Below are positions 1,108-20,700 of a DNA stretch of 32,000 nucleotides, in pieces. A model generated the notes under the pieces. It saw nothing but the letters and a program-made list of their open reading frames with translations. It was not told the DNA's origin and searched no databases. Source of the stretch: Caedimonas varicaedens (GTDB lineage: Bacteria > Pseudomonadota > Alphaproteobacteria > Caedimonadales > Caedimonadaceae); the NCBI GenBank assembly GCA_001192655.1, contig BBVC01000022.1:1-32000 (forward strand), read 5' to 3'. The position numbers were made by a program, and so were the translations under genes. Each line of letters opens with the position of its first letter. Position 1 is the stretch's first letter.

Positions 1108-1126
1108 TTTTGATCAACGTAGAACT

Positions 1127-1156: not shown

Positions 1157-1215
1157 ACGATATTTGTAAAATACAGGCTATGTTTTGCCTGAAAAACAAA
1201 TGTCAAGATCGGTTG

Positions 1216-2346: not shown

Positions 2347-2353
2347 TCTTTCT

Positions 2354-3190
2354 TCATGATTTTATCTTCAGTCCAATTAAAAAGAAGTCATTTTTGTCTG
2401 CAATTTCAACTATTTTCGGCAATTGATGGACAATAACACCACCCGCTTCCACGGCAATACCCCTTAAGCCCGCCTCAAGGGCATGGATGATTGTTTGCGG
2501 TCCTATGGTAGGGCGGTCAGCGCGTGTTTCCTGAAAGGGTTTAAGAATCTTTATCAATACCCCACCTGTTCCCTCGCGTTTTAAGAGCCGGCATCGCACT
2601 AAAAGCTGATCCGTCCCTTCAATCGCTTCAACACCCAGAACAAGACCTTGCTGAACAACAACAGCCTGTCCAATATCACATTTTCCCAAAGCCCTGATGA
2701 TTTTTAAACCATAATCAATGTCTCTTGTCGCTTGTTCATCGGGATGAAAGCGCCCCAACACTCCCTCGGGAACCAAGAGCTTTTCCCCAATAATCTCTTC
2801 AGCACCAACGACACGAAATCCTTCCGTTTCCAAGTTCTGGATAATAATTTTTAAAAGAGAGTCATCTCCAAAAATATTTTTTGCTGACTGGGCAAGCCAT
2901 TTTGCGCATAGGGCATCTGGCTTTAATTCTGTCCAAGAGGGTCTGTGAAATCGCCCCGCAAGAACCAACTCTTTAACCTGTGCTTCTTTTAAACCCTGAA
3001 TGGCTTCTCCCACTTTTCCTAAACGACCCATGATATGAGGATGTTGTAAATAAGTTTCAGGATCTGTTTGACCCGCATAGGCTAATACCAGGAAGGGCCG
3101 TCTCTCTGCCTGGCAGACTTTGATAATTTCTCTTGGAAGATCACCGCTTCCTGCAATAATGCCTAACTTGGGAGATTCAGAGGCTTTCAT
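2354..3190 (-). CDS. lpxI: UDP-2,3-diacylglucosamine pyrophosphatase LpxI (DUF1009 family)
   Basis: Lies between lpxA and lpxB, the usual position of lpxI in genomes that have it (it replaces lpxH). MKASESPKLGIIAGSGDLP is a typical LpxI N-terminus. I chose the start at 3190 (14-nt overlap with the lpxA end). The longer ORF to 3391 runs inside lpxA. Confidence 0.8.
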   Translation of the reverse strand: MKASESPKLGIIAGSGDLPREIIKVCQAERRPFLVLAYAGQTDPETYLQHPHIMGRLGKVGEAIQGLKEAQVKELVLAGRFHRPSWTELKPDALCAKWLAQSAKNIFGDDSLLKIIIQNLETEGFRVVGAEEIIGEKLLVPEGVLGRFHPDEQATRDIDYGLKIIRALGKCDIGQAVVVQQGLVLGVEAIEGTDQLLVRCRLLKREGTGGVLIKILKPFQETRADRPTIGPQTIIHALEAGLRGIAVEAGGVIVHQLPKIVEIADKNDFFLIGLKIKS

Positions 3191-3980
3191 GATCTTTTGG
3201 CACACATAAAGAGCGTGTAGATTCTGCGCGAATAAAATCGATGATCTCCATAACTCTGGGATTTTCAACAAATTTTTCTGCTGTTTTCTGAACGCGTTCT
3301 GCCAGCGTAAAGTCCTGGGAGAACAGGTTTTTATAAGCTTCCCGCAAAGTCTCGATCTCTTCTCGACCTGCTCCCCGACGTTTAAGACCAATCAGATTAA
3401 GACCATAAAGATTTGCCCGTTCTCCCTTAACGGCGCCATAAGGGATGACATCGTGTTCAACGGCGCTCATGCCGCCGATAATGGCGTGGGTGCCGATGCG
3501 GACAAATTGGTGGATGGCAGAAAGTCCGCCAATAATGACGTGATCTTCTACAATAACATGCCCAGCAAGCGTTGCGTTATTAGCCATAATCACACGATTT
3601 CCCAGAATACAATCATGGGCCACATGGGTGCTGGCCATCAGAAGACAATGATCACCCACCTCGGTTTTCATGATTCCCCCGGCTGTGCCAGCCTGAATGG
3701 TCACATATTCCCGAATGATGTTGTGGGCTCCAATGGTCAGGGTTGAAGGTTCGCCCTTGTATTTAAGATCCTGGGTTGGATGACCGATAGAACTAAAGGG
3801 ATAGATTTTTGTTTCTTTTCCAATTTTTGTGCGCCCTGCCAACGTCACATGAGAGATAAGCTCAACGCCGTCGTCCAGCTCAACCTGTTCTGTCAGGACA
3901 CAATAAGGGCCAATCCTGACGTTTTTTCCTATTTTAACAGATTTTTCAATAATCGCTGTTGGATGGATGGAAGAGACCAT
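3177..3980 (-). CDS. lpxA: acyl-ACP--UDP-N-acetylglucosamine O-acyltransferase
   Basis: 267 aa, starts MVSSIHPTAII, with hexapeptide (left-handed beta-helix) repeats. Position fabZ-lpxA-lpxI. Confidence 0.92.
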   Translation of the reverse strand: MVSSIHPTAIIEKSVKIGKNVRIGPYCVLTEQVELDDGVELISHVTLAGRTKIGKETKIYPFSSIGHPTQDLKYKGEPSTLTIGAHNIIREYVTIQAGTAGGIMKTEVGDHCLLMASTHVAHDCILGNRVIMANNATLAGHVIVEDHVIIGGLSAIHQFVRIGTHAIIGGMSAVEHDVIPYGAVKGERANLYGLNLIGLKRRGAGREEIETLREAYKNLFSQDFTLAERVQKTAEKFVENPRVMEIIDFIRAESTRSLCVPKDHESL

Positions 3981-3983
3981 TAA

Positions 3984-4451
3984 TTATGAATCCCCTGCGA
4001 CCATGGCCGTGCAAATTGTTTCAGCATGAACAACGCCATTGACTAGAGCTTCTCCTTTGAATTTCCAAATCGTTTTGCGATTCTGGATTTTTTGTACTCT
4101 GAGTTCCAATATATCTCCGGGAACAACAGGACGACGAAACCTTGCTTCTTCAATAGACATAAAATAGACGTGTCGCTGATTTTTCAGATTCATGCTGTAA
4201 CAAACCAGAATTCCTGCGGTTTGAGCGATCGCTTCAATAATCAAAACGCCCGGCATAATAGGATATTGTGGAAAATGACCCTGAAAAAAATATTCGTTTG
4301 CGGTCACGTTCTTAAAACCCACAGCACTTTCACTGGAAATAATTTTCTCAACTCGATCAACCATCAAAAAAGGATAACGGTGAGGGAGCATCTCCGTAAT
4401 TTCCTGATAGCCCAGCACAATACCCTTACTTACTTTTTCCTGTTCACTCAC
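3984..4451 (-). CDS. fabZ: 3-hydroxyacyl-ACP dehydratase FabZ
   Basis: 155 aa. [20 protein letters not shown] and PGVLIIEA are hallmark FabZ motifs. Confidence 0.95.
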
Positions 4452-5496
4452 GCGTCTTCTTCCTTTCTGCTGGAGATCGTTTTACCATACGGTTAAGCGT
4501 CGCAGTTTGACGCATAAAATCCTTGAGCGGAATAGCAGGACTGCCCAGCACAGTTTCGCCCTCGGGAATGTCTCTCATCACGCCAGATTGAGCACCAATG
4601 CGGGCGCCATTGCCGATGTCTAAATGTCCAATGATGCCTGCCTGGCCTGCAGCAATGACATAATTTCCTAATCGAGTGCTTCCTGCAATGCCGACTTGTG
4701 CAACCAGAACGCATCCTTTTCCCAAAACAACATTGTGTGCAATCATGACAAGGTTATCCAGGCGTGATCCTTGCCCAATGATTGTATCCCGCAAACTTCC
4801 TCGATCAATCGTCGCGTTTGAGCCAATTTCTACATCATCCTCGATAATGACTCTTCCTAATTGAGGAACTGTCACAAATCCTCTCTTATCCATGGCAAAG
4901 CCAAAACCTGCTTGACCTATCCGTACACCAGGATAAATTACAACGCGGCAACCAATAATGGCATGAGAGATCGTCACATTTTGCCCAATCCACGTGTGAT
5001 TGCCAATATCGACCCCGGCGCCAATCACAGTGTTTGCTCCAATTCGACAGTGTTTTCCAATCCTTGCTTTTTCCTTTACCACCACTCCATATTCAAGGAT
5101 TGTTCCTTCTCCTATTTGGGCTGTGGGGTGGGCAGGAGAAGTCATAGAGGACATCTGTCCCTCTGCCTGAGGATACAGTGCGGCAAGAGCAAGGCCAAAG
5201 CTTCGTTGGGGAGAGTCAGAAACCAATAAAGCTATTCCTTTTGGAGCAAGTTCAACGGCTGCGTGCTGAGTAAAACAAACGCCTGCCTTGCTGCTCTGAA
5301 AATCGTTCCTGTATTTCAGATTATGAAACAGAGAGATATCGGAAGGTGTCGCATCTTCAAGAGTCGCCACATTTTCAAAAGCCGAATCTTCAGTCATATT
5401 GAGAGGAAGGGGCATGACGATTTCTGCTCCGGAAACTTCAGAAAGCTTCTTGAGGCTAAGGGCGCCAGAACATTTATAAAAGCGTGGATCAATCAT
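4444..5496 (-). CDS. lpxD: UDP-3-O-acylglucosamine N-acyltransferase
   Basis: 350 aa with hexapeptide repeats. Position skp-lpxD-fabZ. 8-nt overlap with the fabZ start. Confidence 0.92.
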
Positions 5497-5509
5497 GATT
5501 GTTTATCTT

Positions 5510-6097
5510 TTAAGACCATTTTAAAGTGAGAGAGGGAAGTTTTTCATCCAATTTTTTCAGAAGTTCGTCTGTGATTTCAAGAGCATCTTCTCTAAAAATA
5601 ACAAAACTTCGTGGAATAACGAGTTTGTACTTATTTTCAACGGCGGCATCACGAATTAATAACAGGATCGTTTCCTGTACTGTTGTCATAGCCTCATTAA
5701 AAGCTGCTTCAAGCTGTTCACGGTGCTGGGTGGCTTTTTGGTGTACTTTTGCCAGTTTCGCATCAAATTCTTTGCGTTTTTCCGCAAATTCTTCGGACTT
5801 CATATCTTTTTGTTGTTCAACCAGCTTTTTATCCCACGCCAGAAAGAATTCTTCCTGTTTTTTCATTTCTTCCTGGAACTTGAATCGTTGAGTTTCCAGC
5901 TCAATTTGTACTTGTTTAGCCGCCTTGCATTCATGCAAAAGTTTATCAATATTGACAACAGCAATGTCATAAGGTTGGCCAGATTCCTTCGTATTTTTAT
6001 TTTCTGAAGAAATTTTCTGTTCTTGCCCAGAAATCGCGTTTCCAGAACAGACAAAAGTCGGGATAAAAGTGACCAAAATAAGCTGTTTGAAATTCAA
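5510..6097 (-). CDS. OmpH/Skp-family periplasmic chaperone
   Basis: 195 aa with a signal peptide and a K/E/Q-rich coiled-coil body. Lies immediately downstream of bamA, as skp does in most Gram-negatives. Confidence 0.8.
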   Translation of the reverse strand: MNFKQLILVTFIPTFVCSGNAISGQEQKISSENKNTKESGQPYDIAVVNIDKLLHECKAAKQVQIELETQRFKFQEEMKKQEEFFLAWDKKLVEQQKDMKSEEFAEKRKEFDAKLAKVHQKATQHREQLEAAFNEAMTTVQETILLLIRDAAVENKYKLVIPRSFVIFREDALEITDELLKKLDEKLPSLTLKWS

Positions 6098-6108
6098 CCT
6101 TTTCTCCT

Positions 6109-8379
6109 TTAAAAACGCGATGAGAATCCGAATAGCACAAATTGTGTCCGATCGCTTTTTTCTTTCAGAATGGCTTCTGCAAAATCAATCTTAATGGGGC
6201 CCATAGGAGATTTCCAGCGTAACCCAGCGCCCGCTGAAACACGCAACGATGGCTTATCAATAAGGTTAGGGCCTGTCAGCTTTGATTGCCAAACGCTTCC
6301 TGTATCTGAGAAAAGAGCGCCTTTTACGCCAAGCTCATTGGGAAGACCGATCGGGAAAGTAACCTCAAATCCGGCGGCATAGAATTGTTGCCCACCCAAG
6401 GGGTCCTTGGTCACTGTATCATGAGGTCCCACGCCCCCTGCCTCAAATCCACGTAAGGATTCTCCACCCAGGACATAGCGATCAGCAATACGCGTTTTTC
6501 TTCCCAACCCAAACATGATGCCGTACCGTCCTCTCACTTCAATAACGACATCGTCAAACACAGGATAATAATAAGCTCCCCTGATTTGGTTTTTCAGGAA
6601 AGAGATATTTCCGCCAAGACCTGCCAAATCATTGCCGAAACCTATAACGTATCCCATTGTTGGATTAATTTTACTGTCTCTTCGATCATAGGCAATTTCC
6701 TGGGAAACAGCAGACATCAATTTATTTCCTGCTTGCTCTCTTACATAGAGAGAAGCATTCTGGCGGATATGGTTAACATTATCAGTCTGAATACGATACC
6801 CCAAAACCTGAGAGAGATACTCGCTTAACTGATATCCCAAATTTATACTCACCCCATTAATTTGCTGGTCAAACGGGGCATCTTGAAAGCGAGTGCGAGT
6901 GACACGATAAATATCAAATCCTGCGGCTAATTCACGACCCAGGAAATAAGGTTCTGTAAAACCAATATCATATTCCTGACGGCGCTTGGCCAATGTCACG
7001 CCTGTGCGCAGGTCTTGTCCTTTTCCGCGGAAATTATGTTCAGCAAACTTGGCATCAATAAGGGGGCCATCCGCTGTGGAAAAACCTGCACCAAAGCTCA
7101 ACTCTCCCGTCCTCTCCTCTTCAACCTGAATGTCTAGATCCACCAAATCAGGAGCATTCCCTGGTTTTTTATTGATGGTCACTTTTTTAAAGAAGCCAAG
7201 ATCTTTAAGGCGTTTCTCTGAATCTTTCAAAATAGAGGTATTAAATGCATCACCTTCATAAAAACGCACTTCCCGTCGAATGACCTCATCATCTGTACGA
7301 TCATTCTGGAAAATCTGGATTTTATTCACATAGACACGGGGGCCTTCCTGAATATTGAAAGTAACGTTCAGAATATGACCTTTTTGATCTTTCTGGATAT
7401 CAGGCTGTACGTCAACAAACGCATAGCCCATGCTTCCCAAGGCATCCGTCAGAGCAGAGATCGTTTTTTCTACATCCTTGCTGCTGTACCAATCACCTGA
7501 AGAAAAAGTAATCACCTTTCGCAATGCGTTTAAGTTTACCTTTTTCAGGGATGTTTTAATGTCTACCTTCCCAATCTTGTAACGTTCTCCTTCATGAAGG
7601 GTAAAAGTAATAAAAAATTCTTTCTGATCGGGCGTAAGTTCAGCAACGGCTGATTTTACTTGAAAATCAGCATAGCCATGTTCGAGATAAAACTTCCGCA
7701 ATAGTTCACGATCATAGGCAAGGCGGTTGGGATCATAATTATCGTCAGAGGTAAAAAAGCGATACCAACGTGTTTCCTTGGTCTGGATTGTACTTTCAAG
7801 CTTGCTATGATCGAATTTCTTATTACCGATGAAGAAAATTTGACGAACAACTGTTGGCTCACCTTCCTTTATCTTAAAAATAACATCGACCCGGTTTTGA
7901 TCCCGCTGAATAATTTCGGGCGTGACAATTGCAGCAAAATGCCCTTTGAGGCGATAAAGATCCTGAATGCGTTGGGTATCATTGCGAAGGCGCGCCAAAG
8001 TATAGGTTTGTCGGGGGCGCAATTGAAGTTCAGTTTTCAGGATATCGTCCGATAATTTATCATTCCCCTCAAATTCAATTTGATTGACAATAGGATTTTC
8101 CTTCACTTGAATGACAAGCGTTGACCCGTCAATCCTGAGGGAAGCATCCGCAAAAAAACCTGTAGAATAGAGATTTTTCAGGGCTTTATCCAGATCTTCA
8201 TGGGTATATCCCTGTCCCATTTTTAGGTCGATTTGAGAGAGTATGGTTTCACGCTCAATACGAACATTGCCATCAATACGTATATTCTGAATATAAAATT
8301 GTTCTCCCGCCGCATTTGCTGGAAATATAGAAACACACGAAAAAAGGCTAAAAATAAACACCAGAAACAAATTTTTCAC
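6109..8379 (-). CDS. bamA: outer membrane protein assembly factor BamA
   Basis: 756 aa, GTG start, signal peptide, POTRA-like repeats (for example IQNIRIDGN and IVNQIEFEGN), a C-terminal beta-barrel and a terminal aromatic residue (FGFSSRF). Confidence 0.93.
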   Translation of the reverse strand: MKNLFLVFIFSLFSCVSIFPANAAGEQFYIQNIRIDGNVRIERETILSQIDLKMGQGYTHEDLDKALKNLYSTGFFADASLRIDGSTLVIQVKENPIVNQIEFEGNDKLSDDILKTELQLRPRQTYTLARLRNDTQRIQDLYRLKGHFAAIVTPEIIQRDQNRVDVIFKIKEGEPTVVRQIFFIGNKKFDHSKLESTIQTKETRWYRFFTSDDNYDPNRLAYDRELLRKFYLEHGYADFQVKSAVAELTPDQKEFFITFTLHEGERYKIGKVDIKTSLKKVNLNALRKVITFSSGDWYSSKDVEKTISALTDALGSMGYAFVDVQPDIQKDQKGHILNVTFNIQEGPRVYVNKIQIFQNDRTDDEVIRREVRFYEGDAFNTSILKDSEKRLKDLGFFKKVTINKKPGNAPDLVDLDIQVEEERTGELSFGAGFSTADGPLIDAKFAEHNFRGKGQDLRTGVTLAKRRQEYDIGFTEPYFLGRELAAGFDIYRVTRTRFQDAPFDQQINGVSINLGYQLSEYLSQVLGYRIQTDNVNHIRQNASLYVREQAGNKLMSAVSQEIAYDRRDSKINPTMGYVIGFGNDLAGLGGNISFLKNQIRGAYYYPVFDDVVIEVRGRYGIMFGLGRKTRIADRYVLGGESLRGFEAGGVGPHDTVTKDPLGGQQFYAAGFEVTFPIGLPNELGVKGALFSDTGSVWQSKLTGPNLIDKPSLRVSAGAGLRWKSPMGPIKIDFAEAILKEKSDRTQFVLFGFSSRF

Positions 8380-8417
8380 CGAACAACCCTCACATCAAAA
8401 ATTTAAGGCATACTGAT

Positions 8418-9542
8418 CTAGTTAAAGATATTTTTAAAAAACTCAAATACTTTCAAATGGGATAAATCATTCCATGTAGAAATCACTACCAGCAACATGA
8501 CAAGACTAAATCCGATACGATAGCCAGCTTCCTGAACTTTTTCGGAAACAGCTTTTCCACGAATGGCTTCTATAAAATAGAAAAGAAGGTGTCCGCCATC
8601 AAGCATAGGAACAGGGAATAGATTAATCAATCCCAAATTAATGGACAATAACGCTGTTAACCATATGAGGTCTACCAGACTTTTACGTGCCACTTCTCCT
8701 GTCAAATTGGCAATCCCCAAGGGCCCGCTCAGCCCATCTGTTGATTGATTGCCTACAATCATTTGCCCCAGATGAGCCAAAGTTTTTGCGCTGAAAGTGT
8801 AAACGTCTTCTACGGCATAAAAATAGGCGGTTAAAGGGGAACGTTTGACTTCATGATAGGAAGGGGTAATGCCCAGCCTTCCTATTTCATGGTCTCTTAC
8901 TTTTATTGCCTGGGGTGTTGCGCGAATCATCATCTTCTGTTCTTCACGCTGCACATGAAGGACAATTTCATGCCCTGGATTTTCCTGGATAATTTTCTGA
9001 AGCTCGACAAATGTTCCTGTTGTGATGCCATTAATATCCAGAATAAGATCACCTTCCTGAAGTCCAACCTGTTCAGCGGCGCTTTTGGGCATAATGTGAC
9101 CAATTTTCGTCTCCTCAGAAGGAATTTTTTGTCCCATAAAAATATAAAGTGTTCCAAAAAGGAAAATGGCAAAGAGATAATTCGCCAAAGGACCCGCTGC
9201 AGAAACAGCAATTCGTTGCCAGACTGTTTTATGAAAAAGAGAGACTTCTTTATCCTTTTCGCTCATCTCTTGAATGAGTGTCTGATCCGGTTGGCTTGCG
9301 GGGTTCAGATCGCTGAACATTTTGACATAGCCCCCCATTGGAATGATGCTGATTTTCCAGCGTGTTCCCACACGGTCTGTCCAGCCGAAAAGTTCAGCGC
9401 CAAACCCAATGGAAAACACCTCAACTTTTACACCATTCCAGCGCGCAACAAGGTAGTGTCCCAATTCATGGACAAAAACAAGAAGAGAAAGAACCAGGAT
9501 AAAAGGAATAATATTATAATAAACGAGGTTAATCAGAGACAT
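8418..9542 (-). CDS. rseP: RIP metalloprotease RseP (site-2 protease)
   Basis: HELGH zinc motif near the N-terminus, an internal PDZ-like segment and a C-terminal LNLFPVPMLDGG motif. I chose the start at ATG 9542 (374 aa). The ORF is open to 9641, and ATG 9554 is an alternative start. Confidence 0.88.
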   Translation of the reverse strand: MSLINLVYYNIIPFILVLSLLVFVHELGHYLVARWNGVKVEVFSIGFGAELFGWTDRVGTRWKISIIPMGGYVKMFSDLNPASQPDQTLIQEMSEKDKEVSLFHKTVWQRIAVSAAGPLANYLFAIFLFGTLYIFMGQKIPSEETKIGHIMPKSAAEQVGLQEGDLILDINGITTGTFVELQKIIQENPGHEIVLHVQREEQKMMIRATPQAIKVRDHEIGRLGITPSYHEVKRSPLTAYFYAVEDVYTFSAKTLAHLGQMIVGNQSTDGLSGPLGIANLTGEVARKSLVDLIWLTALLSINLGLINLFPVPMLDGGHLLFYFIEAIRGKAVSEKVQEAGYRIGFSLVMLLVVISTWNDLSHLKVFEFFKNIFN

Positions 9543-9745
9543 CCTATGATCCATTCTTAATAGTGATTTTTTAATTCTTGAAGTGTAAAGTCCCAAATGC
9601 GTTCGCGCAAGACAAATTAAAAGGAAAAACGATAAAATCAATCAAGGTTGCATTCTATCATAAAGTTTTATAAAGAAGCATTTGAAGATTTATGTATTTT
9701 TCCTGAAAATACCTGGAGAGTCAAACACGTAGGGGAAAATTAAAG

Positions 9746-10198
9746 ATGCGCCTTGCCCTTTATCAACCTGAAATTCCCCAAAACACGGGGACGCTTTTAC
9801 GACTTGGCGCCTGTCTGGGTGTTCCCCTTGATATTATAGAGCCATGTGGGTTTCCTTTATCAGATGCTGGCTTAAGGCGTGCCGGTATGGATTATCTCGA
9901 GCGTGCAAGCCTAACGCGCCATCAAGGATGGGAAGACTTTCTCAAAGTATGTCCGGGACGTTTGATTCTGATGACGCCCCATACTTCCCATTCCTTTCTC
10001 GATTTTATCTTTGAAAAAGATGATACCCTTCTCTTGGGTCGGGAAAGCTCTGGAGTTCCTGTCACAATTGTTCAACAAATCCAAATCCATCTCAAGATCC
10101 CCATGCTTCCCGATCGGCGTTCAATCAATGTTGCATTGGCGGGCGCCATGGTGTTAAATGAGGCCTTGAGACAAACAAAACTTTTCCCATCTCCATGA
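9746..10198 (+). CDS. trmL: SpoU/TrmL-type tRNA (cytidine/uridine-2'-O)-methyltransferase
   Basis: 150 aa. MRLALYQPEIPQNTG..LRL..PLDIIEP..G..D..LRRAGMDY matches the short TrmL/YibK architecture. Confidence 0.8.
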   Translation: MRLALYQPEIPQNTGTLLRLGACLGVPLDIIEPCGFPLSDAGLRRAGMDYLERASLTRHQGWEDFLKVCPGRLILMTPHTSHSFLDFIFEKDDTLLLGRESSGVPVTIVQQIQIHLKIPMLPDRRSINVALAGAMVLNEALRQTKLFPSP

Positions 10199-11038
10199 TT
10201 GATCAACAAAAAGTTCTTGCCCAAAATTGGTTTGAAAGTCTTCGCGATCAGATCTGTGCGGCTTTTTGAAGCGATTGAAATCACGTATTGCCAGTCCCAT
10301 CCTCCTTCAGATTCAGTCCAGTTTTCCTATAAAACCTGGAAACGTGAAAGCGGGGGCGGTGGGACAATGGCGCTGATGAAAGGAAAAGTATTTGAAAAGG
10401 TAGGTGTTAATGTCTCTACTGTTTGGGGGGAGTTTTCTCCAAAATTTCGGGCAGAGATTCCTGGCGCTGTGGAAGATCCACGTTTCTGGGCAAGTGGTAT
10501 TTCTCTGGTTGCCCATATGGCTTCTCCGCTGGTACCTGCGATTCATATGAACACACGTCATATTATAACGACCAAATCCTGGTTCGGGGGGGGGACTGAT
10601 CTTACGCCTTACTATCCTTATGATGAAGATACCCGGGATTTTCATGATACTCTGCGTCAGACATGTGACGCTTTCAACAAAGACTATTACCCCAAATATA
10701 AAAAGTGGTGTGATGAATATTTTTTTCTTCCTCACCGTAAAGAACCTCGGGGAGTAGGGGGTATTTTTTATGATTATCTTGATTCAGGCTCATGGGAACG
10801 CGATTTTTCCTTTACACAAGGTGTGGGACGCGCCTTCCTTGATGTCTATCCGCGTATTATCCTGCGCCGGCTCAATCTCCCCTGGACAGAAGAGCAGCGG
10901 GAATACCAGCTTCAAAAGCGAGGACGATACGTAGAGTTCAATCTTCTATATGATCGAGGGACGCGTTTTGGCTTGATGACAGATGGCAATATAGAATCCA
11001 TTCTGATGTCCATGCCGCCTGAAGTAAAATGGGTTTAG
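10195..11038 (+). pseudogene. hemF: oxygen-dependent coproporphyrinogen III oxidase, full length but with an apparent +1 frameshift after codon ~24
   Basis: The ATG at 10195 overlaps the trmL stop (ATGA) and reads [24 protein letters not shown]. This matches the conserved HemF N-terminus (E. coli ..LQDTICQQL..). The rest of HemF (EAIE...GGGG...[13 protein letters not shown]...YKKWCDEYF...RGRYVEFNL...SMPP) is in the next frame (ORF 10199..11038). The frame switch is at the T5 run 10263..10267. Confidence 0.65.
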
Positions 11039-11059
11039 AAAAACAGGGATCAAACGATA

Positions 11060-11088
11060 TATAGCTAACAACATATAAAACGGTCATA
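11060..11088. mobile_element. solo IS630 terminal inverted repeat (about 29 bp, rest of the IS absent)
   Basis: tatagctaacaacatataaaacggtcata is identical to the end of the complete IS at 21725..21753. It is fused directly to internal hemF sequence of the inverted arm. Confidence 0.8.
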
Positions 11089-11661
11089 AAAAATACCCCC
11101 TACTCCCCGAGGTTCTTTACGGTGAGGAAGAAAAAAATATTCATCACACCACTTTTTATATTTGGGGTAATAGTCTTTGTTGAAAGCGTCACATGTCTGA
11201 CGCAGAGTATCATGAAAATCCCGGGTATCTTCATCATAAGGATAGTAAGGCGTAAGATCAGTCCCCCCCCGAACCAGGATTTGGTCGTTATAATATGACG
11301 TGTGTTCATATGAATCGCAGGTACCAGCGGAGAAGCCATATGGGCAACCAGAGAAATACCACTTGCCCAGAAACGTGGATCTTCCACAGCGCCAGGAATC
11401 TCTGCCCGAAATTTTGGAGAAAACTCCCCCCAAACAGTAGAGACATTAACACCTACCTTTTCAAATACTTTTCCTTTCATCAGCGCCATTGTCCCACCGC
11501 CCCCGCTTTCACGTTTCCAGGTTTTATAGGAAAACTGGACTGAATCTGAAGGAGGATGGGACTGGCAATACGTGATTTCAATCGCTTCAAAAAGCCGCAC
11601 AGATCTGATCGCGAAGACTTTCAAACCAATTTTGGGCAAGAACTTTTTGTTGATCAATCAT
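11084..11661 (-). pseudogene. hemF: hemF copy 2: 3'-truncated, with the shared frameshift plus an extra one
   Basis: Reverse complement of 10195..10773. C8 at 11263..11270 versus G9 at 10586..10594 in copy 1. The copy ends inside the codons for GGIFYD at the IS remnant. Confidence 0.85.
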
Positions 11662-12109
11662 GGAGATGGGAAAAGTTTTGTTTGTCTCAAGGCCTCATTT
11701 AACACCATGGCGCCCGCCAATGCAACATTGATTGAACGCCGATCGGGAAGCATGGGGATCTTGAGATGGATTTGGATTTGTTGAACAATTGTGACAGGAA
11801 CTCCAGAGCTTTCCCGACCCAAGAGAAGGGTATCATCTTTTCAAAGATAAAATCGAGAAAGGAATGGGAAGTATGGGGCGTCATCAGAATCAAACGTCCC
11901 GGACATACTTTGAGAAAGTCTTCCCATCCTTGATGGCGCGTTAGGCTTGCACGCTCGAGATAATCCATACCGGCACGCCTTAAGCCAGCATCTGATAAAG
12001 GAAACCCACATGGCTCTATAATATCAAGGGGAACACCCAGACAGGCGCCAAGTCGTAAAAGCGTCCCCGTGTTTTGGGGAATTTCAGGTTGATAAAGGGC
12101 AAGGCGCAT
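11658..12109 (-). pseudogene. trmL: trmL copy 2, frameshifted
   Basis: Identical to copy 1 up to ..FIFEK. T4 at 11838..11841 versus A5 at 10014..10018 in copy 1 changes the frame and gives a premature stop (ORF 11699..12109). Confidence 0.85.
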
Positions 12110-12312
12110 CTTTAATTTTCCCCTACGTGTTTGACTCTCCAGGTATTTTCAGGAAAAATACATAAATCTTCAAATGCTTCTTTATAAAACTTTATGATAG
12201 AATGCGACCTTGATTGATTTTATCGTTTTTCCTTTTAATTTGTCTTGCGCGAACGCATTTGGGACTTTACACTTCAAGAATTAAAAAATCACTATTAAGA
12301 ATGGATCATAGG

Positions 12313-13437
12313 ATGTCTCTGATTAACCTCGTTTATTATAATATTATTCCTTTTATCCTGGTTCTTTCTCTTCTTGTTTTTGTCCATGAATTGGGACACT
12401 ACCTTGTTGCGCGCTGGAATGGTGTAAAAGTTGAGGTGTTTTCCATTGGGTTTGGCGCTGAACTTTTCGGCTGGACAGACCGTGTGGGAACACGCTGGAA
12501 AATCAGCATCATTCCAATGGGGGGCTATGTCAAAATGTTCAGCGATCTGAACCCCGCAAGCCAACCGGACCAGACACTCATTCAAGAGATGAGCGAAAAG
12601 GATAAAGAAGTCTCTCTTTTTCATAAAACAGTCTGGCAACGAATTGCTGTTTCTGCAGCGGGTCCTTTGGCGAATTATCTCTTTGCCATTTTCCTTTTTG
12701 GAACACTTTATATTTTTATGGGACAAAAAATTCCTTCTGAGGAGACGAAAATTGGTCACATTATGCCCAAAAGCGCCGCTGAACAGGTTGGACTTCAGGA
12801 AGGTGATCTTATTCTGGATATTAATGGCATCACAACAGGAACATTTGTCGAGCTTCAGAAAATTATCCAGGAAAATCCAGGGCATGAAATTGACCTTCAT
12901 GTGCAGCGTGAAGAACAGAAGATGATGATTCGCGCAACACCCCAGGCAATAAAAGTAAGAGACCATGAAATAGGAAGGCTGGGCATTACCCCTTCCTATC
13001 ATGAAGTCAAACGTTCCCCTTTAACCGCCTATTTTTATGCCGTAGAAGACGTTCACACTTTCAGCGCAAAAACTTTGGCTCATCTGGGGCAAATGATTGT
13101 AGGCAATCAATCAACAGATGGGCTGAGCGGGCCCTTGGGGATTGCCAATTTGACAGGAGAAGTGGCACGTAAAAGTCTGGTAGACCTCATATGGTTAACA
13201 GCGTTATTGTCCATTAATTTGGGATTGATTAATCTATTCCCTGTTCCTATGCTTGATGGCGGACACCTTCTTTTCTATTTTATAGAAGCCATTCGTGGAA
13301 AAGCTGTTTCCGAAAAAGTTCAGGAAGCTGGCTATCGTATCGGATTTAGTCTTGTCATGTTGCTGGTAGTGATTTCTACATGGAATGATTTATCCCATTT
13401 GAAAGTATTTGAGTTTTTTAAAAATATCTTTAACTAG
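12313..13437 (+). CDS. rseP: RIP metalloprotease RseP, copy 2 (intact, 2 aa substitutions)
   Basis: Same length as copy 1. Differs by V->D (HEIDLHV) and Y->H (EDVHTF), plus one synonymous change (GAT/GAC). Confidence 0.8.
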   Translation: MSLINLVYYNIIPFILVLSLLVFVHELGHYLVARWNGVKVEVFSIGFGAELFGWTDRVGTRWKISIIPMGGYVKMFSDLNPASQPDQTLIQEMSEKDKEVSLFHKTVWQRIAVSAAGPLANYLFAIFLFGTLYIFMGQKIPSEETKIGHIMPKSAAEQVGLQEGDLILDINGITTGTFVELQKIIQENPGHEIDLHVQREEQKMMIRATPQAIKVRDHEIGRLGITPSYHEVKRSPLTAYFYAVEDVHTFSAKTLAHLGQMIVGNQSTDGLSGPLGIANLTGEVARKSLVDLIWLTALLSINLGLINLFPVPMLDGGHLLFYFIEAIRGKAVSEKVQEAGYRIGFSLVMLLVVISTWNDLSHLKVFEFFKNIFN

Positions 13438-13475
13438 ATCAGTATGCCTTAAATTTTTGATGTGAGGGTTGTTCG

Positions 13476-15748
13476 GTGAGAAATTTGTTTCTGGTGTTTA
13501 TTTTTAGCCTTTTTTCGTGTGTTTCTATATTTCCAGCAAATGCGGCGGGAGAACAATTTTTATATTCAGAATATACGTATTGATGGCAATGTTCGTATTG
13601 AGCGTGAAACCATACTCTCTCAAATCGACCTAAAAATGGGACAGGGATATACCCATGAAGATCTGGATAAAGCCCTGAAAAATCTCTATTCTACAGGTTT
13701 TTTTGCGGATGCTTCCCTCAGGATTGACGGGTCAACGCTTGTCATTCAAGTGAAGGAAAATCCTATTGTCAATCAAATTGAATTTGAGGGGAATGATAAA
13801 TTATCGGACGATATCCTGAAAACTGAACTTCAATTGCGCCCCCGACAAACCTATACTTTGGCGCGCCTTCGCAATGATACCCAACGCATTCAGGATCTTT
13901 ATCGCCTCAAAGGGCATTTTGCTGCAATTGTCACGCCCGAAATTATTCAGCGGGATCAAAACCGGGTCGATGTTATTTTTAAGATAAAGGAAGGTGAGCC
14001 AACAGTTGTTCGTCAAATTTTCTTCATCGGTAATAAGAAATTCGATCATAGCAAGCTTGAAAGTACAATCCAGACCAAGGAAACACGTTGGTATCGCTTT
14101 TTTACCTCTGACGATAATTATGATCCCAACCGCCTTGCCTATGATCGTGAACTATTGCGGAAGTTTTATCTCGAACATGGCTATGCTGATTTTCAAGTAA
14201 AATCAGCCGTTGCTGAACTTACGCCCGATCAGAAAGAATTTTTTATTACTTTTACCCTTCATGAAGGAGAACGTTACAAGATTGGGAAGGTAGACATTAA
14301 AACATCCCTGAAAAAGGTAAACTTAAACGCATTGCGAAAGGTGATTACTTTTTCTTCAGGTGATTGGTACAGCAGCAAGGATGTAGAAAAAACGATCTCT
14401 GCTCTGACGGATGCCTTGGGAAGCATGGGCTATGCGTTTGTTGACGTACAGCCTGATATCCAGAAAGATCAAAAAGGTCATATTCTGAACGTTACTTTCA
14501 ATATTCAGGAAGGCCCCCGTGTCTATGTGAATAAAATCCAGATTTTCCAGAATGATCGTACAGATGATGAGGTCATTCGACGGGAAGTGCGTTTTTATGA
14601 AGGTGATGCATTTAATACCTCTATTTTGAAAGATTCAGAGAAACGCCTTAAAGATCTTGGCTTCTTTAAAAAAGTGACCATCAATAAAAAACCAGGGAAT
14701 GCTCCTGATTTGGTGGATCTAGACATTCAGGTTGAAGAGGAGAGGACGGGAGAGTTGAGCTTTGGTGCAGGTTTTTCCACAGCGGATGGCCCCCTTATTG
14801 ATGCCAAGTTTGCTGAACATAATTTCCGCGGAAAAGGACAAGACCTGCGCACAGGCGTGACATTGGCCAAGCGCCGTCAGGAATATGATATTGGTTTTAC
14901 AGAACCTTATTTCCTGGGTCGTGAATTAGCCGCAGGATTTGATATTTATCGTGTCACTCGCACTCGCCTTCAAGATGCCCCGTTTGACCAGCAAATTAAT
15001 GGGGTGAGTATAAATTTGGGATATCAGTTAAGCGAGTATCTCTCTCAGGTTTTGGGGTATCGTATTCAGACTGATAATGTTAACCATATCCGCCAGAATG
15101 CTTCTCTCTATGTAAGAGAGCAAGCAGGAAATAAATTGATGTCTGCTGTTTCCCAGGAAATTGCCTATGATCGAAGAGACAGTAAAATTAATCCAACAAT
15201 GGGATACGTTATAGGTTTCGGCAATGATTTGGCAGGTCTTGGCGGAAATATCTCTTTCCTGAAAAACCAAATCAGGGGAGCTTATTATTATCCTGTGTTT
15301 TGACGATGTCGTTATTGAAGTGAGAGGACGGTACGGCATCATGTTTGGGTTGGGAAGAAAAACGCGTATTGCTGATCGCTATGTCCTGGGTGGAGAATCC
15401 TTACGTGGATTTGAGGCAGGGGGCGTGGGACCTCATGATACAGTGACCAAGGACCCCTTGGGTGGGCAACAATTCTATGCCGCCGGATTTGAGGTTACTT
15501 TCCCGATCGGTCTTCCCAATGAGCTTGGCGTAAAAGGCGCTCTTTTCTCAGATACAGGAAGCGTTTGGCAATCAAAGCTGACAGGCCCTAACCTTATTGA
15601 TAAGCCATCGTTGCGTGTTTCAGCGGGCGCTGGGTTACGCTGGAAATCTCCTATGGGCCCCATTAAGATTGATTTTGCAGAAGCCATTCTGAAAGAAAAA
15701 AGCGATCGGACACAATTTGTGCTATTCGGATTCTCATCGCGTTTTTAA
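13476..15748 (+). pseudogene. bamA: bamA copy 2, two +1 frameshifts
   Basis: GTG at 13476. T5 at 13557..13561 versus A4 at 8295..8298, and T4 at 15298..15301 versus A3 at 6556..6558. The ORF is split into 13519..15303 and 15320..15748. Also K2R and F->L substitutions. Confidence 0.88.
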
Positions 15749-15759
15749 AGGAGAAAAGG

Positions 15760-16347
15760 TTGAATTTCAAACAGCTTATTTTGGTCACTTTTATCCCGAC
15801 TTTTGTCTGTTCTGGAAACGCGATTTCTGGGCAAGAACAGAAAATTTCTTCAGAAAATAAAAATACGAAGGAATCTGGCCAACCTTATGACATTGCTGTT
15901 GTCAATATTGATAAACTTTTGCATGAATGCAAGGCGGCTAAACAAGTACAAATTGAGCTGGAAACTCAACGATTCAAGTTCCAGGAAGAAATGAAAAAAC
16001 AGGAAGAATTCTTTCTGGCGTGGGATAAAAAGCTGGTTGAACAACAAAAAGATATGAAGTCCGAAGAATTTGCGGAAAAACGCAAAGAATTTGATGCGAA
16101 ACTGGCAAAAGTACACCAAAAAGCCACCCAGCACCGTGAACAGCTTGAAGCAGCTTTTAATGAGGCTATGACAACAGTACAGGAAACGATCCTGTTATTA
16201 ATTCGTGATGCCGCCGTTGAAAATAAGTACAAACTCGTTATTCCACGAAGTTTTGTTATTTTTAGAGAAGATGCTCTTGAAATCACAGACGAACTTCTGA
16301 AAAAATTGGATGAAAAACTTCCCTCTCTCACTTTAAAATGGTCTTAA
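15760..16347 (+). CDS. OmpH/Skp-family chaperone, copy 2 (intact)
   Basis: 195-aa translation identical to 5510..6097. Confidence 0.78.
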   Translation: MNFKQLILVTFIPTFVCSGNAISGQEQKISSENKNTKESGQPYDIAVVNIDKLLHECKAAKQVQIELETQRFKFQEEMKKQEEFFLAWDKKLVEQQKDMKSEEFAEKRKEFDAKLAKVHQKATQHREQLEAAFNEAMTTVQETILLLIRDAAVENKYKLVIPRSFVIFREDALEITDELLKKLDEKLPSLTLKWS

Positions 16348-16360
16348 AAGATAAACAATC

Positions 16361-17413
16361 ATGATTGATCCACGCTTTTATAAATGTTCTGGCGCCCTTA
16401 GCCTCAAGAAGCTTTCTGAAGTTTCCGGAGCAGAAATCGTCATGCCCCTTCCTCTCAATATGACTGAAGATTCGGCTTTTGAAAATGTGGCGACTCTTGA
16501 AGATGCGACACCTTCCGATATCTCTCTGTTTCATAATCTGAAATACAGGAACGATTTTCAGAGCAGCAAGGCAGGCGTTTGTTTTACTCAGCACGCAGCC
16601 GTTGAACTTGCTCCAAAAGGAATAGCTTTATTGGTTTCTGACTCTCCCCAACGAAGCTTTGGCCTTGCTCTTGCCGCACTGTATCCTCAGGCAGAGGGAC
16701 AGATGTCCTCTATGACTTCTCCTGCCCACCCCACAGCCCAAATAGGAGAAGGAACAATCCTTGAATATGGAGTGGTGGTAAAGGAAAAAGCAAGGATTGG
16801 AAAACACTGTCGAATTGGAGCAAACACTGTGATTGGCGCCGGGGTCGATATTGGCAATCACACGTGGATTGGGCAAAATGTGACGATCTCTCATGCCATT
16901 ATTGGTTGCCGCGTTGTAATTTATCCTGGTGTACGGATAGGTCAAGCAGGTTTTGGCTTTGCCATGGATAAGAGAGGATTTGTGACAGTTCCTCAATTAG
17001 GAAGAGTCATTATCGAGGATGATGTAGAAATTGGCTCAAACGCGACGATTGATCGAGGAAGTTTGCGGGATACAATCATTGGGCAAGGATCACGCCTGGA
17101 TAACCTTGTCATGATTGCACACAATGTTGTTTTGGGAAAAGGATGCGTTCTGGTTGCACAAGTCGGCATTGCAGGAAGCACTCGATTAGGAAATTATGTC
17201 ATTGCTGCAGGCCAGGCAGGCATCATTGGACATTTAGACATCGGCAATGGCGCCCGCATTGGTGCTCAATCTGGCGTGATGAGAGACATTCCCGAGGGCG
17301 AAACTGTGCTGGGCAGTCCTGCTATTCCGCTCAAGGATTTTATGCGTCAAACTGCGACGCTTAACCGTATGGTAAAACGATCTCCAGCAGAAAGGAAGAA
17401 GACGCGTGAGTGA
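16361..17413 (+). CDS. lpxD: UDP-3-O-acylglucosamine N-acyltransferase, copy 2 (intact)
   Basis: 350-aa translation identical to copy 1. Confidence 0.88.
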
Positions 17414-17872
17414 ACAGGAAAAAGTAAGTAAGGGTATTGTGCTGGGCTATCAGGAAATTACGGAGATGCTCCCTCACCGTTATCCTTTTTTGATGGTTGA
17501 TCGAGTTGAGAAAATTATTTCCAGTGAAAGTGCTGTGGGTTTTAAGAACGTGACCGCAAACGAATATTTTTTTCAGGGTCATTTTCCACAATATCCTATT
17601 ATGCCGGGCGTTTTGATTATTGAAGCGATCGCTCAAACCGCAGGAATTCTGGTTTGTTACAGCATGAATCTGAAAAATCAGCGACACGTCTATTTTATGT
17701 CTATTGAAGAAGCAAGGTTTCGTCGTCCTGTTGTTCCCGGAGATATATTGGAACTCAGAGTACAAAAATCCAGAATCGCAAAACGATTTGGAAATTCAAA
17801 GGAGAAGCTCTAGTCAATGGCGTTGTTCATGCTGAAACAATTTGCACGGCCATGGTCGCAGGGGATTCATAA
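17406..17872 (+). pseudogene. fabZ: fabZ copy 2, frameshifted near the C-terminus
   Basis: A5 at 17764..17768 versus T6 at 4088..4093 in copy 1. The translation diverges after ..LELRVQK and stops at 17813. The last ~34 residues of FabZ are lost. Confidence 0.85.
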
Positions 17873-17875
17873 TTA

Positions 17876-18679
17876 ATGGTCTCTTCCATCCATCCAACAG
17901 CGATTATTGAAAAATCTGTTAAAATAGGAAAAAACGTCAGGATTGGCCCTTATTGTGTCCTGACAGAACAGGTTGAGCTGGACGACGGCGTTGAGCTTAT
18001 CTCTCATGTGACGTTGGCAGGGCGCACAAAAATTGGAAAAGAAACAAAAATCTATCCCTTTAGTTCTATCGGTCATCCAACCCAGGATCTTAAATACAAG
18101 GGCGAACCTTCAACCCTGACCATTGGAGCCCACAACATCATTCGGGAATATGTGACCATTCAGGCTGGCACAGCCGGGGGAATCATGAAAACCGAGGTGG
18201 GTGATCATTGTCTTCTGATGGCCAGCACCCATGTGGCCCATGATTGTATTCTGGGAAATCGTGTGATTATGGCTAATAACGCAACGCTTGCTGGGCATGT
18301 TATTGTAGAAGATCACGTCATTATTGGCGGACTTTCTGCCATCCACCAATTTGTCCGCATCGGCACCCACGCCATTATCGGCGGCATGAGCGCCGTTGAA
18401 CACGATGTCATCCCTTATGGCGCCGTTAAGGGAGAACGGGCAAATCTTTATGGTCTTAATCTGATTGGTCTTAAACGTCGGGGAGCAGGTCGAGAAGAGA
18501 TCGAGACTTTGCGGGAAGCTTATAAAAACCTGTTCTCCCAGGACTTTACGCTGGCAGAACGCGTTCAGAAAACAGCAGAAAAATTTGTTGAAAATCCCAG
18601 AGTTATGGAGATCATCGATTTTATTCGCGCAGAATCTACACGCTCTTTATGTGTGCCAAAAGATCATGAAAGCCTCTGA
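17876..18679 (+). CDS. lpxA: acyl-ACP--UDP-GlcNAc O-acyltransferase, copy 2 (intact)
   Basis: 267-aa translation identical to copy 1. Confidence 0.88.
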   Translation: MVSSIHPTAIIEKSVKIGKNVRIGPYCVLTEQVELDDGVELISHVTLAGRTKIGKETKIYPFSSIGHPTQDLKYKGEPSTLTIGAHNIIREYVTIQAGTAGGIMKTEVGDHCLLMASTHVAHDCILGNRVIMANNATLAGHVIVEDHVIIGGLSAIHQFVRIGTHAIIGGMSAVEHDVIPYGAVKGERANLYGLNLIGLKRRGAGREEIETLREAYKNLFSQDFTLAERVQKTAEKFVENPRVMEIIDFIRAESTRSLCVPKDHESL

Positions 18680-19502: not shown

Positions 19503-19509
19503 AGAAAGA

Positions 19510-20641: not shown

Positions 20642-20700
20642 CAACCGATCTTGACATTTGTTTTTCAGGCAAAACATAGCCTGTATTTTACAAATATCGT

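What the first reader, a model, noticed from the sequence alone, without database searches (positions are those of the whole stretch)
10774..11088. Palindrome centre: solo IS630 end fused to mid-hemF through a TCATA microhomology (template-switch signature)
After the complete hemF (stop at 11038) and a ~20-nt spacer there is only the terminal ~29 bp of the IS630 element (11060..11088, identical to 21725..21753). It joins directly to the inverted arm inside hemF, at the position corresponding to 10773.

The bases tcata (11084..11088) belong both to the IS end (..cggtcata) and to the reverse complement of hemF (..aatcataaaaaatac). That makes them a 5-bp microhomology at the breakpoint.

A simple model fits the observed structure exactly. 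The ancestral order was IS(+)-cluster-hemF-IS(-)-def. A nascent strand stalled 29 bp into the downstream IS. It switched by microhomology onto the complementary strand within hemF and copied back through the cluster into the upstream IS. It then returned by homology between the inverted IS copies.

This is a fold-back or MMBIR-like inverted duplication, a mechanism well described in eukaryotes. I am not aware of it being commonly reported at this scale in bacterial chromosomes.
Basis: partly seen in the sequence, partly recalled or inferred. Interest (0 to 1): 0.7.

Follow-up and report, generated by a model that had tools for sequence, protein, structure and literature searches.

The report
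Fold-back inverted duplication, unverified 454 contig
A 10.7-kb block of essential envelope genes appears twice, head to head, in a draft genome of the Paramecium symbiont Caedimonas varicaedens, joined as a DNA polymerase folding back on its own strand would join it. This is a known kind of rearrangement, and from this error-prone 454 assembly I cannot tell whether it happened in the cell or in the tube or assembler.

Summary
Window 1..10773 and 11084..21857 are a 99.8% inverted repeat around a 310-nt unique centre. That centre contains TA plus the terminal 27 bp of an IS630-family element (11060..11088), fused to mid-hemF through a shared TCATA (chance P=0.006).

Corrections:
- The real IS is 21727..22629. 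ORF 322..1107 is not its transposase.
- hemF is frameshifted (T5) in both arms.
- Close relatives have a single-copy cluster with hemF directly next to def and both IS sites empty.

The window is the first 32 kb of a 43,140-bp contig of Caedimonas varicaedens BBVC01 (Roche 454, Newbler 2.5.3).

All 19 inter-arm differences are derived on the right arm. They look like 454 errors: 1-nt homopolymer indels, 7/7 transitions AT->GC against a natural 14:43 ratio, and clustering. So the true arms, if both exist, are identical, and the right arm is a thin consensus.

The anatomy fits fold-back priming followed by return through the inverted IS copies. I put about 45% on a genuine recent chromosomal event and about 40% on an in-vitro or assembler artefact. 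Reads or PCR would settle it.

The mechanism is already documented in bacteria, for example tandem inversion duplications. Interest is low to moderate.

The parts
1..133 (+). Last 131 bp of an IS630-family copy, IS(+), comprising the transposase C-terminal 43 codons and the IRR, followed by the TA target duplication (132-133). It is cut by the contig start.
   Evidence: Identical to the reverse complement of 21725..21857. The flank from 134 matches the empty site in relatives L082-L084. Annotation numbering leaves no slot for a transposase before ORF322.
134..10773 (+). Left arm. It holds ORF322 (340..1107), lpxB, lpxI, lpxA, fabZ, lpxD, ompH, bamA, rseP, trmL and the 5' two-thirds of hemF. 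All are intact except hemF.
   Evidence: ORFs. Pfam families come from the relatives' gene tables. Proteins are identical to GAO97986-97996 and, for several, to MAG GCA_041443065.1. The left arm is ancestral at all 19 inter-arm differences.
10195..11038 (+). hemF (coproporphyrinogen III oxidase). It has a +1 frameshift (T5 against T4) at 10259-10263. The deposited annotation is a 260-aa N-truncated ORF (GAO97996.1).
10769..10773 (+). TATGA, the acceptor microhomology inside hemF and the inner end of the left arm.
   Evidence: The T at 10771 is a natural allele shared with L086 and L087.
10774..11083 (+). Unique centre, the loop of the fold-back (310 nt). It consists of the hemF 3' end, a 21-nt spacer, TA, and the first 22 nt of the IS end.
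   Evidence: Positions 10774..11059 are 100% identical to relative L081.
11060..11088 (+). Solo IS end: the TA target duplication of site 2 plus the terminal 27 bp of the IS630-family IRR. The last 5 nt (TCATA, 11084-11088) are shared with the inverted hemF.
   Evidence: The empty site in L081 reads ACGATA|TACGAAAAAT.
11089..21724 (-). Right arm, an inverted copy of 134..10768. It carries 19 derived differences that break hemF, trmL, bamA, fabZ and lpxB. I read these as sequencing errors of a thin consensus.
   Evidence: The broken products are deposited as GAO97997.1, GAO98000.1 and GAO98004.1.
21725..22631 (-). Complete IS630-family element. The IS is 21727..22629 (903 bp), flanked by TA at each end. 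The transposase is 21749..22573 (274 aa, GAO98010.1). The TIRs are 31 nt and 84% complementary.
   Evidence: Pfam DDE_3 and HTH_Tnp_IS630. TIRs. The TA duplication is seen against the empty site in L081.
22691..23284 (+). def (peptide deformylase, GAO98011.1), the ancestral neighbour of hemF.

Best explanation
This is a genuine and very recent fold-back (snap-back or U-turn) inverted duplication in the Caedimonas varicaedens chromosome.

Starting state (inferred): rplQ - IS(+) - [ORF322...hemF] - IS(-) - def. Two identical IS630-family copies had inserted at TA sites in inverted orientation, with their IRR ends facing the cluster.

Event (inferred): a 3' end was generated 27 bp inside IS(-), at the inner edge of its terminal inverted repeat, by fork stalling or by a break followed by resection. 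Its last five bases, TCATA, paired with TATGA 310 nt upstream in hemF, either on the same strand or on the lagging-strand template. DNA synthesis then ran backwards through the whole cluster and into IS(+). That produced IS(-)-oriented sequence, which re-paired with the remainder of the real IS(-). The chromosome was thereby reconnected to def.

What the sequence shows directly: both junctions, the hybrid IS, the TA duplications, and the empty sites in relatives.

What is inferred: the order of events, the polymerase steps, and that this happened in the cell.

The 19 differences between the arms are 454 errors, not divergence.
For: - The junction has a 310-nt loop and 5-bp microhomology (P=0.006).
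- The solo TA+27 bp and the far IS end carry the two halves of one TA-duplicated insertion between hemF and def.
- The complete IS joins the site-1 flank on one side and the site-2 flank on the other, as homology-mediated return predicts.
- The TATGA in hemF is a natural allele, not a by-product of the junction.
- Relatives give the single-copy ancestral order on both sides.
- The contig runs straight through position 11088 and through a 903-bp multi-copy IS.
  - That is easier for a short-read overlap assembler if every read leaving the spacer turns into the inverted arm and if both IRR-side neighbours of this IS variant are the same sequence. This step is my inference.
  - The exact 274-aa transposase is recorded on only this contig.
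- The mechanism is known in bacteria and organelles (PMC4417113; Kugelberg et al. 2010, cited in PMC12625342).
Against: - No reads, read depth or independent assembly support the junction. The exact junction-truncated hemF products are absent from 15 billion proteins, and the IS 29-mer gave no hit in GTDB genomes.
- The source is a 454/Newbler 2.5.3 draft. That version normally collapses long inverted repeats into one double-depth contig (PMC3248859), so a contig spelling out both arms is anomalous.
- The left arm starts at the first base of the contig.
- The right arm is a low-quality copy.
- Every close relative, including a MAG with identical BamA, TrmL and Def, is single copy.
- In-vitro strand-displacement chimeras have the same inverted, proximal, microhomology signature (PMC1855051).
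Confidence: 0.45

Rival explanations
1. Artefact. The true chromosome is single copy: rplQ - IS(+) - cluster - hemF - IS(-) - def. One or a few chimeric molecules or reads were made in vitro by fold-back priming. Possible sources are a strand-displacing or end-repair polymerase, whole-genome amplification if it was used, or emulsion PCR. These reads gave the assembler an exit from the contig exactly where it would otherwise stop, at a repeat boundary. The assembler then threaded back over the same region using leftover low-quality reads and re-entered the IS through the true site-1 junction.
For: - The draft is 454/Newbler and was produced in a graduate class.
- The palindrome touches the contig start.
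- The inserted segment 11089..21753 is bounded by 29-bp direct repeats. Deleting it restores a perfect IS insertion between hemF and def.
- All 19 differences sit on the right arm and look technical:
  - 8 one-nucleotide homopolymer indels, half of them in runs of 3-4.
  - 7/7 transitions AT->GC against a natural 14:43 ratio (Fisher p=2e-4).
  - 3 events within 33 bp (P=0.015).
  - A garbled IS/flank junction.
- In MDA/454 data, 85% of chimeras are inverted, and 93.5% of the proximal inverted ones show 2-21 nt of complementarity (PMC1855051).
Against: - The paper mentions no amplification.
- Single chimeric reads rarely override the many true reads continuing from the spacer into the IS.
- Newbler does not normally place the same sequence twice (PMC3248859), so this route also needs unusual assembler behaviour.
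- It also needs a second wrong step, joining the ORF322 flank to def across a 903-bp repeat.
Confidence: 0.4
2. The molecule is real but not the fixed genome. Fold-back products exist in the DNA preparation as a sub-population. Examples would be a minority of symbiont chromosomes, or broken and degrading chromosomes of R-body-producing cells repaired by snap-back synthesis. The assembler merged this minority path with the main one.
For: It would explain a physical junction with good microhomology together with thin support for the second arm. U-turn junctions are common low-frequency species in organelle DNA (PMC4417113).
Against: There is no direct evidence. Reads inside the arm would be indistinguishable from main-genome reads, so thin support is not specifically predicted.
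Confidence: 0.1
3. An old duplication whose right copy is decaying into pseudogenes. On this view the frameshifts and substitutions are real mutations under relaxed selection.
For: All differences are derived on the right arm and break five genes, while the left arm stays intact.
Against: - The substitution spectrum is opposite to the lineage's natural one (7:0 against 14:43, p=2e-4).
- The indel-to-substitution ratio is about 1:1.
- Half of the indels fall in runs of 3-4, although 30 runs of 6 or more are available.
- The differences are clustered.
- The technology is 454.
Confidence: 0.03
4. A transposase-made junction, such as aberrant IS630 transposition or one-ended insertion into hemF.
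For: The breakpoint lies at the inner edge of the 31-nt TIR. The acceptor sequence contains TA.
Against: The join is 27 bp inside the element, not at an IS terminus. There is no target duplication at this join. The IS terminus itself (11062) still abuts its own TA target next to the spacer.
Confidence: 0.02

Closest known systems
Fold-back / U-turn inverted duplications: replication U-turns in organelles (Zampini et al. 2015, PMC4417113) and fold-back inverted duplications in human (Hermetz et al. 2014, PMC3907307)
   Same: A 3' end anneals at a short inverted microhomology a short distance upstream on the opposite strand. This gives an inverted copy separated from the original by a short single-copy spacer.
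   Different: The U-turns were defined at less than 50 bp, whereas here the loop is 310 nt. In eukaryotes the product is a terminal duplication with a dicentric or telomere-capture outcome. Here the event is closed internally by homology between two inverted IS copies.
Tandem inversion duplication (TID) in Salmonella enterica (Kugelberg et al. 2010, Genetics 185:65; cited in PMC12625342 and PMC4417113; details from my own knowledge)
   Same: A bacterial inverted duplication of tens of kb, initiated by snap-back or template switching at short quasi-palindromic sequences.
   Different: A TID has three copies (direct, inverted, direct) with two short-homology junctions, and it was found under selection on F'128. 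Here there are two copies, the second junction lies in 903 bp of IS homology, and no selection is known.
DUP-TRP/INV-DUP rearrangements (PLP1/MECP2; PMC4352052)
   Same: The same two-junction logic. One junction forms by homology between pre-existing inverted repeats, the other by microhomology (MMBIR-like).
   Different: No triplicated segment is present, and the order of the two switches is reversed. The organism is a bacterium and the inverted repeats are IS copies.
In-vitro inverted chimeras of strand-displacement amplification (Lasken & Stockwell 2007, PMC1855051)
   Same: An inverted join of proximal segments (less than 10 kb apart) with 2-21 nt of complementarity, detected in 454 data.
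   Different: Those are individual read-level junctions. Here a whole 10.7-kb second arm is spelled out in a contig. Use of amplification is not documented for this genome.
IS630-family insertion sequence
   Same: A DDE_3 plus HTH_Tnp_IS630 transposase, 31-nt TIRs, TA target duplication, and a size of 903 bp.
   Different: Nothing unusual in the element itself. The solo 27-bp end is a rearrangement product, not a MITE or a standalone repeat.

Membership tests
IS630-family insertion sequence | DDE transposase with an IS630-type N-terminal HTH domain | tested here: met
   PF13358 DDE_3 at 6.7e-31 and PF01710 HTH_Tnp_IS630 at 2.7e-16.
IS630-family insertion sequence | Terminal inverted repeats and TA target-site duplication | tested here: met
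   TIRs are 31 nt and 84% complementary. TA is duplicated at both insertion sites when compared with the empty sites in L081 and L082-L084.
Fold-back / U-turn inverted duplication | Junction joins two nearby positions on opposite strands, leaving a short single-copy spacer | tested here: met
   11088 joins the reverse complement of 10768, with a 310-nt spacer.
Fold-back / U-turn inverted duplication | Microhomology at the junction beyond chance | tested here: met
   5 bp (TCATA/TATGA). P(5 bp or more) = 0.006 in 200,000 simulated junctions.
Fold-back / U-turn inverted duplication | The structure exists in cellular DNA: junction reads, doubled copy number, independent confirmation | not testable with these tools
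The junction-specific proteins are absent from the protein collection. The 29-mer is absent from GTDB genomes.
Tandem inversion duplication (Kugelberg 2010) | Three copies (direct-inverted-direct) with two junctions at short quasi-palindromes | tested here: not met
   Only two copies are present. The second junction lies within 903-bp IS homology.
DUP-TRP/INV-DUP | One junction within pre-existing inverted repeats, the other with microhomology | tested here: met
   A hybrid IS forms one junction and the TCATA join forms the other.
DUP-TRP/INV-DUP | Inverted triplicated segment flanked by duplicated segments | tested here: not met
   No third copy of any part of the cluster exists in the window.
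In-vitro strand-displacement (MDA-type) chimera | Inverted, proximal (less than 10 kb), 2-21 nt complementarity at the junction | tested here: met
   compared with PMC1855051.
In-vitro strand-displacement (MDA-type) chimera | Amplified template and junction supported by isolated reads only | not testable with these tools
   The genome paper gives no library details beyond 'Roche 454'.
Decaying duplicate (pseudogenised paralogous copy) | Differences follow the lineage's natural mutation spectrum | tested here: not met
   7:0 AT->GC:GC->AT against a natural 14:43, Fisher p=1.9e-4. The run-length profile and clustering of the indels also argue against it.

The most novel reading that the evidence does not exclude
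The duplication is real. Its breakpoint at the inner edge of the 31-nt transposase-binding terminal repeat is not a coincidence. On this reading, a transposase-bound (or nicked) IS630 end blocks a fork or creates a break, and the end is rescued by fold-back synthesis. Pairs of inverted IS copies would then act as built-in 'return ramps' that turn such accidents into viable palindromic duplications of essential gene clusters. That would be a route for IS-rich endosymbiont genomes to gain large inverted repeats. This example would have been caught at zero divergence.
Probability: 0.1. Interest if true: 0.55.

Novelty: new member of a known kind. Interest (0 to 1): 0.27.

Why it matters
If real, this would be a clean natural example, with no laboratory selection, of a microhomology-primed fold-back duplication in an obligate endosymbiont. 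Both junctions and both ancestral empty sites are readable. It would double the dose of lipid A and BamA genes. It would also show how inverted IS pairs can rescue a fold-back intermediate.

If it is an artefact, the public C. varicaedens genome (GCA_001192655.1) carries about 10.7 kb of spurious sequence and about 13 spurious or 'pseudogene' CDS (GAO97997-GAO98009). Those would inflate counts of paralogues and pseudogenes in Holosporales comparisons.

Either way the mechanism is not new to bacteria.

Tried and rejected
1. A scan of GTDB genomes with ORF322, and later with the IS 29-mer, found nothing. The source genome is not in that collection.
2. A metagenome scan with hemF gave only relatives at 69% identity or less, which were of no use.
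3. Exact look-ups of hemF (279 aa), the transposase, ORF322 and lpxB found no contig. The source assembly appears to be withheld from that index, so I could not view the contig beyond the window. I inferred the contig start from accession numbering instead.
4. I first thought the patch of 10 differences from L081, which ends 2 bp from the junction and includes the T inside TATGA, was linked to the event through mutagenic repair, arm-to-arm conversion or strain chimerism. I rejected this. At all nine substitution sites the window matches the independent relatives L086 and L087, so L081 and the MAG are the recombinants.
5. Break-induced-replication mutagenesis cannot explain the right-arm changes. 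A density of 1.8 per kb is orders of magnitude too high (my own knowledge of BIR rates).
6. Real pseudogene decay was rejected on the substitution spectrum.
7. A transposase-made junction was rejected on the anatomy.
8. Contigs with RpoA identical to C. varicaedens (L088-L092) were checked for an IS at site 1. None has one.
9. A literature search for Newbler inverted-duplication misassemblies found nothing.

Full report
OBSERVATION. The window contains a giant inverted repeat. Positions 1..10773 pair with 21857..11084 at 99.82% identity (10 mismatches, 9 gap openings). Between the arms lie 310 unique bases (10774..11083). These comprise the 3' third of hemF (stop at 11036-11038), a 21-nt spacer, and then TATAGCTAACAACATATAAAACGGTCATA (11060..11088). 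That 29-mer is identical to 21725..21753 and to the reverse complement of 105..133. It has 3 hits in the window against 0 expected. After base 11088 the sequence continues as the reverse complement of hemF from 10768 downward. TCATA (11084..11088) is common to both partners. In 200,000 simulated fold-back junctions built from this sequence, microhomology of 5 bp or more occurred in 0.6%.

CORRECTED ANATOMY.
- The transposase is ORF 21749..22573 on the minus strand (274 aa; Pfam DDE_3 6.7e-31, HTH_Tnp_IS630 2.7e-16).
- The element is 21727..22629 (903 bp), with 31-nt terminal inverted repeats that are 84% complementary. It is flanked by TA.
- ORF 322..1107 and its mirror are a secreted hypothetical protein with no Pfam hit, not a transposase.
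- The 29-mer is therefore TA (target duplication) plus the outermost 27 bp of the IS, nearly the whole terminal repeat.
- Window 1..131 is only the tail of a second, oppositely oriented copy.
- The arm carries ORF322, lpxB, lpxI, lpxA, fabZ, lpxD, ompH, bamA, rseP, trmL and hemF.

SOURCE. Exact protein look-ups identify the window as the 43,140-bp contig of the Caedimonas (Caedibacter) varicaedens draft genome BBVC01 / GCA_001192655.1.
- Matching proteins include transposase GAO98010.1, Def GAO98011.1, VgrG GAO98014.1, left BamA GAO97993.1, the right BamA fragment GAO98000.1, and the right-arm hemF fragment GAO97997.1. The last of these carries the right-arm frameshift.
- That genome was sequenced with Roche 454 and assembled with Newbler 2.5.3 into 142 contigs as a graduate-class project. 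No further library detail is given (PMC4645214).
- Accession numbering runs RpoA 97984, RplQ 97985, ORF322 97986, LpxB 97987, and so on.
- RpoA's exact sequence is recorded only on contigs of 30,882 bp or less, and there is no slot for a transposase before ORF322.
- I infer that the contig starts inside the left IS copy and that the window is its first 32 kb. The left arm therefore begins at the contig edge.

RELATIVES.
- A MAG contig (GCA_041443065.1, 15,147 bp) has BamA, TrmL and Def identical to the window. It has the cluster once, with hemF followed after 82 bp by def.
- Locus L081 (JGI 3300042946) provides the DNA. It matches window 9764..11061 and then 22628..23808 (100%), overlapping on TATA. 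This shows an empty site and a TA duplication for the IS between hemF and def.
- L082-L084 (97.6% identity) show rplQ, about 780 bp, ORF322, lpxB. Homology with the window starts at position 130, so the other IS site is also empty there. The left-arm junction matches their sequence exactly.
- L085 (95% identity) spans VgrG through def, hemF and lpxB to rplQ and rpoA in single copy.
- So the ancestral state is single copy without either IS. The predicted intermediate, with two IS copies but no duplication, was not found.

THE TWO ARMS DIFFER ONLY BY TECHNICAL-LOOKING CHANGES. With L081, L082, L084 and L085 as outgroups, all 19 differences are ancestral on the left arm and derived on the right.
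- The 19 differences comprise eight 1-nt homopolymer indels, eight substitutions, and a garbled 3-change patch at the IS/flank junction. The indels fall in runs of 3, 3, 4, 4, 5, 6, 6 and 9.
- The indels break lpxB, fabZ, bamA, trmL and hemF.
- Half of the indels hit runs of 3-4, although the arm holds 30 runs of 6 or more.
- All seven transitions are AT->GC. Natural substitutions in this lineage run 14 AT->GC to 43 GC->AT (Fisher p=1.9e-4).
- Three events lie within 33 bp (P=0.015).
- Given 454 chemistry, these are errors of a thin consensus, not pseudogene decay. The true arms, if both exist, are identical.
- The left arm and the right flank are clean by comparison. The one exception is T5 against T4 at 10259-10263, which frameshifts hemF in both arms and is unique to this genome.

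A RED HERRING RESOLVED. All ten differences between the window and L081 lie at 10263..10771. They end 2 bp from the junction and include the T that creates TATGA. At the nine substitution sites the window is identical to two independent relatives, L086 and L087, so L081 and the MAG carry the recombinant patch. The microhomology is natural.

MECHANISM. The geometry is that of a 3' end ...GGTCATA, 27 bp inside IS(-), pairing with TATGA 310 nt upstream. The pairing partner is either the same strand (snap-back after resection) or the lagging-strand template (replication U-turn). The end is then extended back through the cluster into IS(+). The IS(-)-oriented sequence made there can re-pair with the remainder of the real IS(-).
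- This explains why the complete IS carries the site-1 flank on one side and the site-2 flank on the other.
- It also explains why deleting 11089..21753, a segment bounded by 29-bp direct repeats, restores a perfect insertion.
- Shown by the sequence: the junctions and the empty sites.
- Inferred: the order of events, the enzymes, and the venue.

REAL OR ARTEFACT. Arguments for an artefact:
- The source is a 454/Newbler draft.
- The palindrome touches the contig start.
- The second arm is thin and error-laden.
- Newbler 2.53 is documented to collapse long inverted repeats into one double-depth contig and not to repeat sequence between contigs (PMC3248859). A contig spelling out both arms is therefore anomalous.
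- In-vitro strand-displacement chimeras are 85% inverted and proximal, and 93.5% of the proximal inverted ones show 2-21 nt of complementarity (PMC1855051).

Arguments for a real structure:
- A 5-bp microhomology implies a polymerase-made physical molecule.
- The contig passes 11088 and a 903-bp multi-copy IS without breaking. That is easier if no read continues from the spacer into the IS and if both IRR-side neighbours of this IS variant are the same sequence. This step is my inference.
- An artefact needs two assembler errors plus re-use of 10.7 kb.

I cannot decide with these tools. My estimates are about 0.45 genuine chromosomal event, about 0.40 artefact, and about 0.10 real but sub-population molecules.

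COMPARISON AND NOVELTY. The structure works like fold-back or U-turn inversions (PMC4417113, PMC3907307). In its two-junction logic it resembles DUP-TRP/INV-DUP (PMC4352052). In bacteria the closest precedent is the tandem inversion duplication of Salmonella (Kugelberg et al. 2010, cited in PMC12625342). It is not a TID (two copies, not three) and not a DUP-TRP/INV-DUP (no triplication). At best this is a new member of a known kind.

VERDICT. Interest is low to moderate (0.27), pending read-level validation.

Noticed in passing
window 10259-10263 (mirror 11594-11598): hemF carries a +1 frameshift (T5) in both arms. Four relatives (L081, L085, L086, L087) have T4 and an intact 280-aa protein. 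Either hemF is a pseudogene or N-truncated in this strain, or this is a shared consensus error, which would mean the two arms' consensus sequences are not independent.
   Followed up: partly
window 10586-10594 (mirror 11263-11270): The G-run in hemF is G9 in the left arm and G8 in the right arm. It is G10 in an ENA metagenome relative (P0014, which ends WFGGGD*). The tract is unstable or error-prone across technologies.
   Followed up: partly
L081 versus window 10369-10771: The relative L081 and the MAG GCA_041443065.1 carry a roughly 400-bp recombinant patch in hemF (9 substitutions, 3 of them amino-acid changes). Their flanks are otherwise 100% identical to the window. The window allele matches L086 and L087.
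   Followed up: yes
window 21717-21726: The right-arm IS/flank junction reads TATTTCAGGAAAAAA where the left arm and all relatives read TAATTTGGAAAAAA. The variant resembles IS-internal sequence (TTATTTCAGGATAA) about 45 bp away, which suggests read misalignment in the consensus.
   Followed up: partly
window 22275-22281 (A7/T7 tract in the transposase gene): Other copies of this IS in the same genome, and copies in metagenome relatives (P0004, 15 contigs), encode products of about 120 aa that end just after this tract. Frameshift variants of the transposase are therefore widespread. These could be inactive copies or programmed frameshifting.
   Followed up: no
window 322/340..1107 and 20750..21535; L085 17167-17283: ORF322 is a secreted 255-261-aa protein with no Pfam hit. 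It sits between rplQ and lpxB in close relatives but is absent in the 95% relative L085, where lpxB abuts rplQ. It is a lineage-specific insertion next to the first IS site.
   Followed up: partly
L090 2807-3074, L091 2011-2278 versus L084 5321-5588: Two adjacent blocks of about 130-140 bp in the rplQ-ORF322 intergenic region are in swapped order in some relatives, and about 350 bp is missing.
   Followed up: no
window 23958..27267 and 27458-27531: A VgrG (type VI secretion spike, 884 aa) with a downstream 215-aa protein lies just beyond rsfS. Two 33-nt direct repeats, 41 nt apart, sit in the upstream intergenic region.
   Followed up: no
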